NCBI GenBank assembly: GCA_016748015.1
Contig: JAAOMT010000571.1
Coordinates: 62,001-126,000 of the forward strand
Reading direction: 5' to 3'
DNA from: Geosiphon pyriformis uo1
Taxonomy: Eukaryota > Fungi > Glomeromycota
DNA length: 64,000 nucleotides
In this document: positions 6,401-9,400 of the stretch, in pieces
Numbering within the stretch: the stretch's first letter is position 1
How the letters are laid out: every line of letters begins with the position of its first letter
Notes under the pieces: model-generated
What the model was told of the DNA's origin: nothing
Databases searched by the model: none
What the model saw: only the letters and a program-made list of their open reading frames with translations
Translations under genes and position numbers: made by a program

Positions 6401-9400
6401 TGATATCCTCGATTTCAGAAATATGGTATACATCGTTTAAAGTAACTTGTTGTCCATAGAATAAATCTTGTTTTTTCGACTGTTAAATTTTTGGATGTAC
6501 ATATAGATGGTCGAGGTCATTTTTAAAGTTCAAATTCAGGTTCACAACAGGAGCAATATCAGAAAAGCAAGAGAACTCACCGTTATAACCTGAATCGTCT
6601 CATTGCTAATCTTCATTATGACAGGAACGGTAACTCGATAATGAGATATTTTAATTACAGGCGCAAATTGTGCACTTGCTTCAGTGTCCAGTGCGGCTGA
6701 GAAAATATGAGAGAGTCCGGTTAAACTGGTGTTGTAATAAAAAGATAAAATATCGAAAAAAATAACTCAAATTACTTGTGCTTTTGGGTAGCCGAATCTC
6801 TGAAGGAGAAATATGTTCGTGTAATTCGCTCAAGCTACACATAAAAATTGTCTTCTTTCCAATTTTATGGGATAAGGGACGTGTTTAATTGTCAAGGTTA
6901 CTATTGATTAACCATATACATATATACTATAAAGAAAACAAGTTTCGTTCCTATTGAAAAGGATATGTGGCAGTTTTTTCGAGAATTTCTTGAATGCGGT
7001 GTTGGTGTTATACATATATACATTACATAGATTCTCGACCGCATCAAATGGAAGGATTTGAATAAATGCTTGTATCCATTGTAACTGTACTTCATTGGCA
7101 TGTCCAAATTGTGTCAAATCGACAACTAATTCATATGGCTTTCCCATCGATGATTCTATGGTCTAAGGTTCAAGTCAGTCAAAAAAATCATCTAAAGAAT
7201 GCTTGTTACATAATACCATTGTGAAATTCATGAAATCTTACGTGAAGTATGTGATACATTAAGAGTTCCATGTCAGTTGATTCGGCACTTAATCGATGGG
7301 CAATAAAATAAAATACAGGTCTTTTTTCCTGTAAAATCTTACTTTGGTTAGATATCATCAACCAATCCAAAAGTGAATCAGGAATTTATTATTAACCTTT
7401 GATACACCCCCACCATAAAACAGTCCCTTCGAAGATATTGATTCGAGATTTCGATTTGAATATCGTCGCATGAATTCGGAAAATAAATGATGATTTGTTT
7501 CAAAATGTTGATTACTAATACTTGAAAACTCCTTCTTCTGATTTTCAGAAGGTGGGCCGAGTTTTGCAAGAAGAGTGGATAGTTTATCATAGGCTCTCTT
7601 ATTTGCCTGAGTTTGATCTATTTCTGAAAGTCCATTGCTTGGATTGATTGATTTAACACGTCGGGTAACAAGCTCTCTACCCATACGTTCCAAGTTGAGA
7701 AATAAATACTTGTGAAGCGCTTTACGATCAGTATCCTCTAATCTTGAGCTAGGTTTGGCTTCGACTTTTTTTGTTTCGACGACATTTGAGTCGTTATTTA
7801 ACACCTGGAAGTAATTCAATTCAAGATAATTAACGTATAAATTTCTGAATAGACTATAGTAAAATCGAAACTTTCTTTACCGATATATTTTGTAAAAATC
7901 GAGTGATTTTGACTATATTGTCGTGAAGAAATTTGTTCAACACAGTCATGTAGGGTTCTTTAGCGCCAAATAACACGTTGTTAGCTAAATTAGTGATAAT
8001 TTTGGTGATTAAGAGGAGACCGCGTCGAAATTCTTTACTCGGGGGAGGATTTATTAATTCGGAATCTGGGGCGACAATCACCGGACAGAAGAATCGAAGG
8101 AAAATAAAAGCACCAACAGCTGTATATGTTGCATCAGGAAATTTTTCGCCAGCCGCGGTGGCAATATAATAACAAACCTCTCGAAATGGTCTTTGTTGAG
8201 AGATTTCATGAGGCAAAATTAATAGAGTAATTCAGAGGTCCTAACGGTTTTTTGTCGAAATTAATAAAAACTACCTTGGGACATTCTCAGCGGATGCACA
8301 AATCTCATCCAAGAAGGTTTGCGCCATTCGATGAACATTTGAAAGATTATTCTGAGCATTTTCCCCGGGATTAATTCTTTCCTTGTCGAGTTCAAAGTTC
8401 AATTCATTGGACTTTTTAAGAAAGTCTTGTAACAAAGGCTGTAGAGTCTCCCTCAAATAATCATCACCGTATAATTTACCAAACGCTGTTAACAATCGTG
8501 TCGTCATACAATTCCTTCGGAATAATTCCGTTTGATGATCTAAAAATTAAATATTAGTAAAATTAAAGCAAGGTTAACAATTGATCTCAAAAAATTAACT
8601 TTTAAGATATATACCAGTATTGATGACTTCTTTTTCAATAACAGCTTTCAACAGAGGCATTGTTCGATTACGTGACTCAAAGACATTCAATAAAACTTGG
8701 GCCACTTCGTCAATATCTGAAACAGGACAAACTTCGCATAAAGACATTACAATATTTAGATCCGAATCTGTAATAAGCTAAAGGAAAGGAAGAGTAAATC
8801 AGAGTAACCAATCTTTGCGTACAAATTCTAGGAGAACAGTTATTAAAAACAAGTCTTCTATCCTATATACACATACCTCCACAAGTTTGTCATAACGGTC
8901 ATTCATGGCATTTTCAGCAAGACCTTCAAATTCAGTTCCTTGATTAAGAATGTTTGTGAGTACTTGCATGAATGCTGTCCTAGTCTGTGTGTCCTCATGG
9001 TAGCCCATCGAAAGGGAATATTTGAGTCCAGAATCAACATTAGCACTAAGCACATTTGAAAGAGCTTGAATCGTGTAATCTTTCAAGGGGCCAAGATCTT
9101 TAACATATTCTTTGGACTATTATAAATATTAAGGATAAGCTTGACTATAACCTTCAAGTAAAGGCAATTATGCGAAAGAATCATTGATAGAACATTATTC
9201 ACCTTAGATAGTAACATTTGTAAATCTTGATTGTTCTTTGATGAGTGGGTTCCACTATCGATTGCCTTCAATATGAAAATTTGCAGGTTTAAGAAAATGA
9301 CATTTATAAAAACTTTAACATTACTCAAAAGTAAAAAAAAAAACTTACCTCCAATATACGGCATCTGTTTAAAAGTTTAATAAAAAATGAAAAATATTTA

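What the first reader, a model, noticed from the sequence alone, without database searches (positions are those of the whole stretch)
6881..6966. AT-AC minor-spliceosome intron in a fungal neurofibromin, which thus has two U12 introns
Seen: the intron starts ATATCCTTTT, has branch CCTTGAC ~10 nt before a terminal AC, and this junction keeps the Sec14 domain in frame. Standard GT-AG predictors would mis-model it. Retention stops translation at 6908-6910, downstream of the GAP domain. Known: U12 introns are rare and usually one per gene; I do not recall one in animal NF1. Inference: lineage-specific minor-intron gain could put Ras downregulation under minor-spliceosome control.
Basis: partly seen in the sequence, partly recalled or inferred. 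Interest (0 to 1): 0.8.

Follow-up and report, generated by a model that had tools for sequence, protein, structure and literature searches.

The report
Ancient minor intron in fungal neurofibromin
A mycorrhizal-type fungus's neurofibromin (NF1) gene carries a rare AT-AC intron with all the sequence marks of the minor splicing machinery, and an amoeba has a minor-type intron at the same spot, so it is likely a very old relic rather than a new fungal invention; the public gene model misses it and drops 55 amino acids.

Summary
Observation confirmed. Minus-strand 6966-6881 is an 86-nt phase-1 intron (ATATCCTTTT; CCTTGAC ending 10 nt before AC) in the Sec14-like domain of a 29-intron, 2797-aa NF1/IRA gene. 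Its junction beats six GT/GC-AG alternatives against 20 of 20 homologues. The deposited protein of this gene (Geosiphon pyriformis, 2633/2636 aligned residues identical) skips 55 aa across it. A second U12-like GT-AG intron (3794-3693) is spliced in a transcript-like contig; no contig covered the AT-AC junction.

The 'lineage-specific gain' reading fails. An Acanthamoeba-related amoeba has a GT-AG U12-type intron at the same codon and phase, so the site likely predates the amoebozoan-opisthokont split, switched subtype, and was lost in animals and several fungi. The second intron matches a human NF1 intron position that is U2-type. Minor introns are known to be common in these fungi (205 predicted in Rhizophagus), and clustering in one gene is known. 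Control of Ras by minor splicing is untested. The scan found similar ancient, mis-annotated minor introns in other early-diverging fungi before. Verdict: real, new member of a known kind; a gene-model fix plus an intron-evolution example.

The parts
6881..6966 (-). Intron 21 of NF1/IRA: U12-type AT-AC intron, 86 nt, phase 1, in the Sec14-like domain
6957..6966 (-). U12-type 5' splice site ATATCCTTTT
6891..6897 (-). U12-type branch motif CCTTGAC (likely branch A at 6892)
6908..6910 (-). In-frame TAA reached if the intron is retained; 8 introns lie downstream
6967..7162 (-). Upstream exon, CRAL_TRIO_2 (Sec14-like) match E 1.4e-10
6776..6880 (-). Downstream exon, missing from the deposited protein P0134
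3693..3794 (-). Intron 29: U12-like GT-AG intron, 102 nt, phase 2; same codon and phase as the human NF1 intron after c.7907
3725..3731 (-). Candidate branch motif CCTTAAT of intron 29, 32 nt from its 3' end
3434..14915 (-). Host gene: neurofibromin/IRA RasGAP, 30 exons, 2797 aa as modelled here

Best explanation
This is an 86-nt AT-AC intron with canonical minor-spliceosome signals in the Sec14-like domain of a Geosiphon neurofibromin gene, predicted to be removed by the U11/U12 spliceosome and likely inherited from the common ancestor of amoebozoans and opisthokonts rather than newly gained. Mechanism (inferred from established U12 biology, not shown here): U11 pairs with ATATCCTT, U12 with CCTTGAC, U6atac/U4atac/U5 catalyse, and 6967 is joined to 6880, giving an intact Sec14-PH module. 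Failure to splice would leave a stop 19 codons in with 8 introns downstream, so the transcript would probably be degraded or give a protein without the PH and C-terminal part. History (inferred by parsimony): one ancestral U12 intron, AT-AC in Geosiphon and GT-AG in an amoeba, lost in animals and in several fungal copies, and probably converted to U2 type in some protists. It most likely persists as a relic with at most a mild effect on output.
For: Signals and frame. Full motif 1 seen vs 0.02 expected. The AT-AC junction outscores each of 6 alternative GT/GC-AG junctions against 20 of 20 homologues and aligns without a gap. Amoebozoan L025/L028/L029 carry GTATCCTTT...TACTTAAC...CAG, 89 nt, phase 1, at the same codon; three MAFFT modes on 200 sequences put the split codon in one column; rough chance of a U12-U12 coincidence about 0.001. 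Intron-free L008 (about 79% nt identity to L025) reads the same junction peptide. L025 and L008 group with A. castellanii, SH-aLRT 100, outside fungi and animals (quick tree, midpoint root). L025 shares 5 of its 17 resolved introns exactly with the window, about 0.06 expected by chance. Protein-only hints: P0278 (69% to an Entrophospora NF1) reads YIL after the site and soon stops, as an ATATCCT donor would; P0312, P0315 and P0332 stop two residues after it with RK, SM, SK, as phase-1 U2 donors would. De novo minor-intron gain is reported as very rare (PMC10639083 section 38).
Against: No RNA covers this junction in the fungus (see Tried and rejected), so splicing is inferred. The minor snRNAs of this genome could not be sought. 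The amoebozoan DNA evidence is one organism type (three contigs 97-98% identical). Of 31 loci that cover the site, only those 3 have the intron; fungal loci with neighbouring introns (L005, L009, L010, L026, and probably L003) and animal loci with introns (L019, L020, L024, L031, L034, L044-L046) lack it, so several losses are needed. The residues after the junction differ by a one-residue indel between fungus and amoeba.
Confidence: 0.85

Rival explanations
1. Lineage-specific gain of a minor intron in Glomeromycotina, with an independent gain at the same site in an amoeba.
For: Many orthologues lack the intron, including close fungal ones (L005, L009, L010, L026) and human (exon c.4773-5205 spans the site near c.5020). 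The terminal dinucleotides differ between fungus and amoeba.
Against: Same codon, same phase and same rare class in two supergroups, chance about 0.001; four other introns are shared exactly as well; subtype switching is a described process (PMC8199999 passage); de novo creation has very little support.
Confidence: 0.05
2. The intron is kept because slow U12 splicing acts as a regulated valve on RasGAP dose, putting Ras shut-off under minor-spliceosome control.
For: Retention gives a premature stop. Two U12-like introns lie in this gene and two in the amoeba's. Minor introns are described as rate-limiting and as present in Ras-Raf genes (review passages; BRAF and RASGRP1).
Against: The intron is absent from several close relatives, so it is dispensable. 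In Rhizophagus, minor splicing did not rise in proliferating cells and functional enrichment was largely explained by gene age. No retention data for this gene.
Confidence: 0.1
3. The region is spliced by the major spliceosome at a GT-AG pair (such as 6919-6855, or the longer skip in the deposited model), or the AT-AC intron is U2-dependent.
For: In-frame GT/GC-AG options exist, and the deposit uses one. U2-type AT-AC introns exist (PMC1557818 abstract).
Against: All 6 alternatives tested score below the AT-AC junction against 20 of 20 homologues; the deposit loses 55 conserved residues; the donor is ATATCCTT, unlike the 27 U2 donors of this gene, none of which has C at +5.
Confidence: 0.04

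Closest known systems
Minor (U12-type) introns of Rhizophagus irregularis and Basidiobolus meristosporus (Larue and Roy 2023, PMC10639083)
   Same: Same fungal group or neighbours; canonical donor and branch motifs; phase 1; position shared with a distant eukaryote.
   Different: NF1/neurofibromin is not named in that paper's main text ('neurofibromin') or its one supplementary file. Geosiphon is in its species list, but the deposited model omits this intron, so an annotation-based survey would probably miss it (inference).
U12 introns of Acanthamoeba castellanii (PMC2846911, passages; Russell et al. as cited there)
   Same: Amoebozoans are known to have both AT-AC and GT-AG U12 introns and minor snRNAs.
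   Different: The NF1 introns of the related amoeba L025 are not among those named in the passages seen ('neurofibromin' 0 hits).
Human NF1 gene structure
   Same: Orthologous protein (PDB 7r03 and others). An intron lies at the codon and phase of window intron 29 (c.7907).
   Different: Human has no intron at the AT-AC site (exon c.4773-5205); the c.7907 intron starts GTAA, a U2 donor; NF1 is not on the human or mouse minor-intron gene lists.

Membership tests
U12-type intron, AT-AC subtype | 5' splice site RTATCCTTT with AT start | tested here: met
   ATATCCTTTT at 6966
U12-type intron, AT-AC subtype | Branch motif CCTTRAC close to the 3' end | tested here: met
   CCTTGAC ends 10 nt before the intron end; published search range -40 to -5
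U12-type intron, AT-AC subtype | AC terminus without a polypyrimidine tract; removal restores the reading frame | tested here: met
   ends AATTAAACAC; gap-free alignment to homologues
U12-type intron, AT-AC subtype | Removed from the mRNA at these ends | tested here: inconclusive
   The one listed run has no contig over the site; the orthologous amoeba junction is matched by intron-free L008
U12-type intron, AT-AC subtype | Host encodes U11, U12, U4atac and U6atac, and splicing depends on them | not testable with these tools
   No genome held; none in the window; all four reported for Rhizophagus
U12-type intron, GT-AG subtype (intron 29) | GTATCCTTT donor, spliced to the AG | tested here: met
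   Donor; a contig skips exactly 3693-3794; chance of such a donor among 29 introns about 0.001
U12-type intron, GT-AG subtype (intron 29) | Branch motif near the acceptor | tested here: inconclusive
   TTTTCCTTAAT ends 32 nt upstream, inside -40 but farther than usual; CCTTAAT or TCTTAAT also occurs in 2 of 27 U2 introns
Neurofibromin / IRA RasGAP | RasGAP, then Sec14-like (CRAL_TRIO_2), then PH_NF1 in a protein of about 2700 aa | tested here: met
   Pfam on P0134 and on window exons; human neurofibromin chains E=0
Lineage-specific (newly gained) minor intron | No intron at the orthologous site outside the lineage | tested here: not met
   U12-type intron at the same codon and phase in amoebozoan L025, L028, L029

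The most novel reading that the evidence does not exclude
The neurofibromin gene of the amoebozoan-opisthokont ancestor carried two or three minor introns (window codons about 1766, 1887 and 2712). Animals shed them all, by loss at the Sec14 site and by U12-to-U2 conversion at the site of the human c.7907 intron, while Geosiphon kept two. NF1 would then be a compact record of all three fates of minor introns (subtype switch, loss, conversion) over more than a billion years.
Probability: 0.4. Interest if true: 0.45.

Novelty: new member of a known kind. Interest (0 to 1): 0.3.

Why it matters
It corrects a public gene model that deletes 55 residues of the Sec14-like lipid-binding domain of a fungal NF1, and similar disturbances in four other Glomeromycotina models hint at the same fault. 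It gives a dated example of a minor intron kept between a fungus and an amoeba, with different terminal dinucleotides, in a gene that has no minor intron in humans; surveys anchored on human lists or on existing annotation would probably miss such cases. It does not open a new mechanism.

Tried and rejected
RNA for the junction: no RNA holder was listed as such; the single run X1 behaves as transcript contigs, with joints at introns 29 and 9, but lays nothing on 4835-10861 at 88% likeness or on 6000-7900 at 80%. This blank is no evidence either way. No whole genome is held, so minor snRNAs and the paralogue's DNA could not be read. Scans of genome contigs (57 pattern matches) and viral contigs (55) gave no relative. 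Rfam over the window found only a tRNA. Arthropod-like introns near the site (L024, L045, L046) were rejected as orthologous: they are U2 type and lie about seven codons downstream; those of L031 and L034 lie elsewhere too. Of the xIL/xIP flags, those in animal-like and long proteins (RIL...) are ordinary exon sequence and were dropped; only P0275 (the L025 organism) and P0278 were kept. Disturbed annotated proteins at the site (paralogue P0138, P0127, P0139, P0206) suggest hard-to-predict splicing but were not counted as intron presence, since no DNA was seen. A match of the amoeba's other U12 intron to a human intron could not be fixed: the alignment there is loose. The careful tree did not finish; the quick tree was used. 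Literature searches for prior mention: NF1+neurofibromin+U12-type intron gave 4 unrelated reviews, listing seen only; neurofibromin+Acanthamoeba+intron+U12 gave 0; the 15 listed of 706 papers had no Geosiphon hit. The figshare and introns.info tables of Larue and Roy could not be seen and may list NF1 minor introns.

Full report
Observation. On the minus strand, 6966..6881 begins ATATCCTTTT, holds CCTTGAC at 6897-6891 and ends AAACAC; it is 86 nt long. Joining 6967 to 6880 gives an open frame (KKFSKKLP|RPLSHKIGKK, phase 1), and retention stops at TAA 6910-6908. A scan of both strands found six RTATCCTY sites; only two have a branch motif downstream, 6966 and 3794, both in this gene. The full donor, branch and AC pattern occurs once, against 0.02 expected in 100 local resamplings; the bare donor 8-mer is not rarer than chance.

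Host gene. A 29-intron model from 14915 to 3434 translates to 2797 aa without an internal stop. It is neurofibromin/IRA: RasGAP, CRAL_TRIO_2 and PH_NF1 in order, with human neurofibromin structures at E=0. The named protein P0134 (Geosiphon pyriformis) is identical at 2633 of 2636 aligned residues, but lacks window residues 1867-1921 (55 aa) across the AT-AC intron. The AT-AC junction aligns without a gap to early-diverging fungal homologues and outscores each of six GT/GC-AG alternatives against 20 of 20 homologues. Four other Glomeromycotina models (P0138, P0127, P0139, P0206) are also disturbed across this stretch; their DNA was not seen.

RNA. The one listed run, X1, has a contig that skips exactly 3693-3794 and another that skips intron 9. 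That shows intron 29 is spliced. Nothing covers intron 21, which leaves its splicing inferred.

Is it a fungal gain? A metagenome scan gave 50 NF1 loci. At the AT-AC site, 31 of 50 were covered: 3 have an intron at the exact site, 5 animal-like loci have a U2 intron elsewhere within 25 codons, and 23 have none, many of them intron-free transcript-like contigs that say nothing. The three (L025, L028, L029; 97-98% identical, so one observation) have an 89-nt phase-1 intron that starts GTATCCTTT, with TACTTAAC shortly before CAG, splitting KKYSKKIA|K. Three alignment modes on 200 sequences put this codon in the same column as the window's. Intron-free L008 reads the same junction peptide. L025 and L008 group with Acanthamoeba castellanii NF1 (P0237, named) at SH-aLRT 100, apart from fungi and animals (quick tree of 38 selected rows, midpoint root). 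L025 shares 5 of its 17 resolved introns exactly with the window (one further gap was not resolved), about 0.06 expected by chance, and a U12-U12 coincidence has a rough chance of 0.001. The plain reading is one ancestral U12 intron that switched subtype in one lineage; the direction is not resolved. Fungal loci with neighbouring introns (L005, L009, L010, L026) lack it, as do intron-bearing animal loci and human: the site maps to about c.5020 (my arithmetic) inside an exon that runs c.4773-5205 (table passages of PMC8593033). A profile search (best 150 of 264 hits listed) added protein-only hints: P0278, a Glomeromycotina-like ORF, reads YIL after the site and stops soon after, and three protist-like ORFs stop two residues after it with RK, SM or SK, which fits phase-1 U2 donors. 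These are inferences from amino acids, not DNA.

The second intron. Intron 29 (GTATCCTTTT, phase 2) splits the codon matching human residue 2636, that is c.7907/7908. A patient table lists c.7907+1_7907+4delGTAA with skipping of r.7807_7907 (passage of PMC7349720), so human has an intron there with a U2 donor. Of 18 loci that cover the site, 1 (animal-like L019) has a GTAAGT phase-2 intron there and the amoeba L025 has none. Of 162 proteins aligned to the site, 8 end at it or one residue after it, as a GTAA/GTAG/GTGA donor would make them; most are nearest to Mucoromycota proteins. So the position is old, and only the window shows U12 marks. Conversion is assumed in the field to run from minor to major (PMC10639083 section 27), which would make Geosiphon the keeper of the old state; but the branch motif is 32 nt from the end, and drift of a U2 intron toward a U12-like donor is not excluded. 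I put the U12 class of intron 29 at about 0.8.

Mechanism. Shown: the signals, the frame, the stop on retention, the shared position. Inferred from established knowledge (recalled, not from a call): U11 and U12 recognise donor and branch site, and U6atac with U5 catalyses; a retained intron with 8 introns downstream would probably be degraded or give a protein without the PH and C-terminal part. Not shown: dependence on the minor spliceosome in this fungus, or any regulation. Against a regulatory valve: the intron is missing in close relatives, and in Rhizophagus minor splicing did not rise with proliferation (PMC10639083 section 35).

What is known. [quoted passage not shown] Geosiphon is in their species list (supplement text); their external tables were not seen. 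Acanthamoeba U12 introns are known (passages of PMC2846911). U12 introns cluster in the same genes more than chance gives (passage of PMC7367187), though most genes have one (passage of PMC8199999). PMC11347168 passages report few or no minor introns in the Mucoromycota species it sampled and 237 in Basidiobolus. NF1 is absent from the human and mouse minor-intron gene lists. The searches showed no paper on this intron. Earlier notes of this scan describe similar ancient, mis-annotated minor introns in other early-diverging fungi; they came after my reading was set and were not checked.

Verdict. Real and canonical U12-type AT-AC intron; new member of a known kind. The gain hypothesis is refuted by the amoebozoan orthologue, and the Ras-control idea is untested and not favoured. 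The value lies in a gene-model correction and a clear case of deep conservation with subtype switch and repeated loss. Interest 0.3.

Noticed in passing
L025:756-826: The amoebozoan NF1 has a second U12-type GT-AG intron (71 nt, phase 1, branch CCTTAAC) at window residue about 1766, where the window has none; so it also has at least two minor introns.
   Followed up: partly
P0121, P0123-P0125 at window residue about 1885: Rhizophagus irregularis and Glomus cerebriforme NF1 models carry a two-residue insertion (IL or IS) just before the intron site, absent from close relatives. Real insertion or modelling trace is unexplained.
   Followed up: no
window about 13290-13560 (-), residues 198-287: A long poly-Asn tract in an NF1 exon is in frame; the deposit P0134 removes 90 residues of it, probably as a false intron.
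   Followed up: partly
window 9117-9202 (-): Intron 14 differs by 17 residues between my model and the deposit; its true ends are unsettled.
   Followed up: no
window 12092-12202: CT microsatellite fills most of the 3' part of NF1 intron 5.
   Followed up: no
window 16152-16223 (+): tRNA-His (GTG) about 1.2 kb upstream of the NF1 start.
   Followed up: no
window 17298-23874 (+): Acetyl-CoA carboxylase gene, divergent from NF1.
   Followed up: no
window 46625-50577 (+) and 31994-32758 (+): LTR-retrotransposon-like pieces (protease, RT, RNase H, integrase) in separate open frames, and a dUTPase frame in a strongly skewed region near 28-36 kb.
   Followed up: no
tree: NF1 is duplicated in Glomeromycotina: one duplication in the Glomerales/Diversisporales group and a separate one in Geosiphon.
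   Followed up: no
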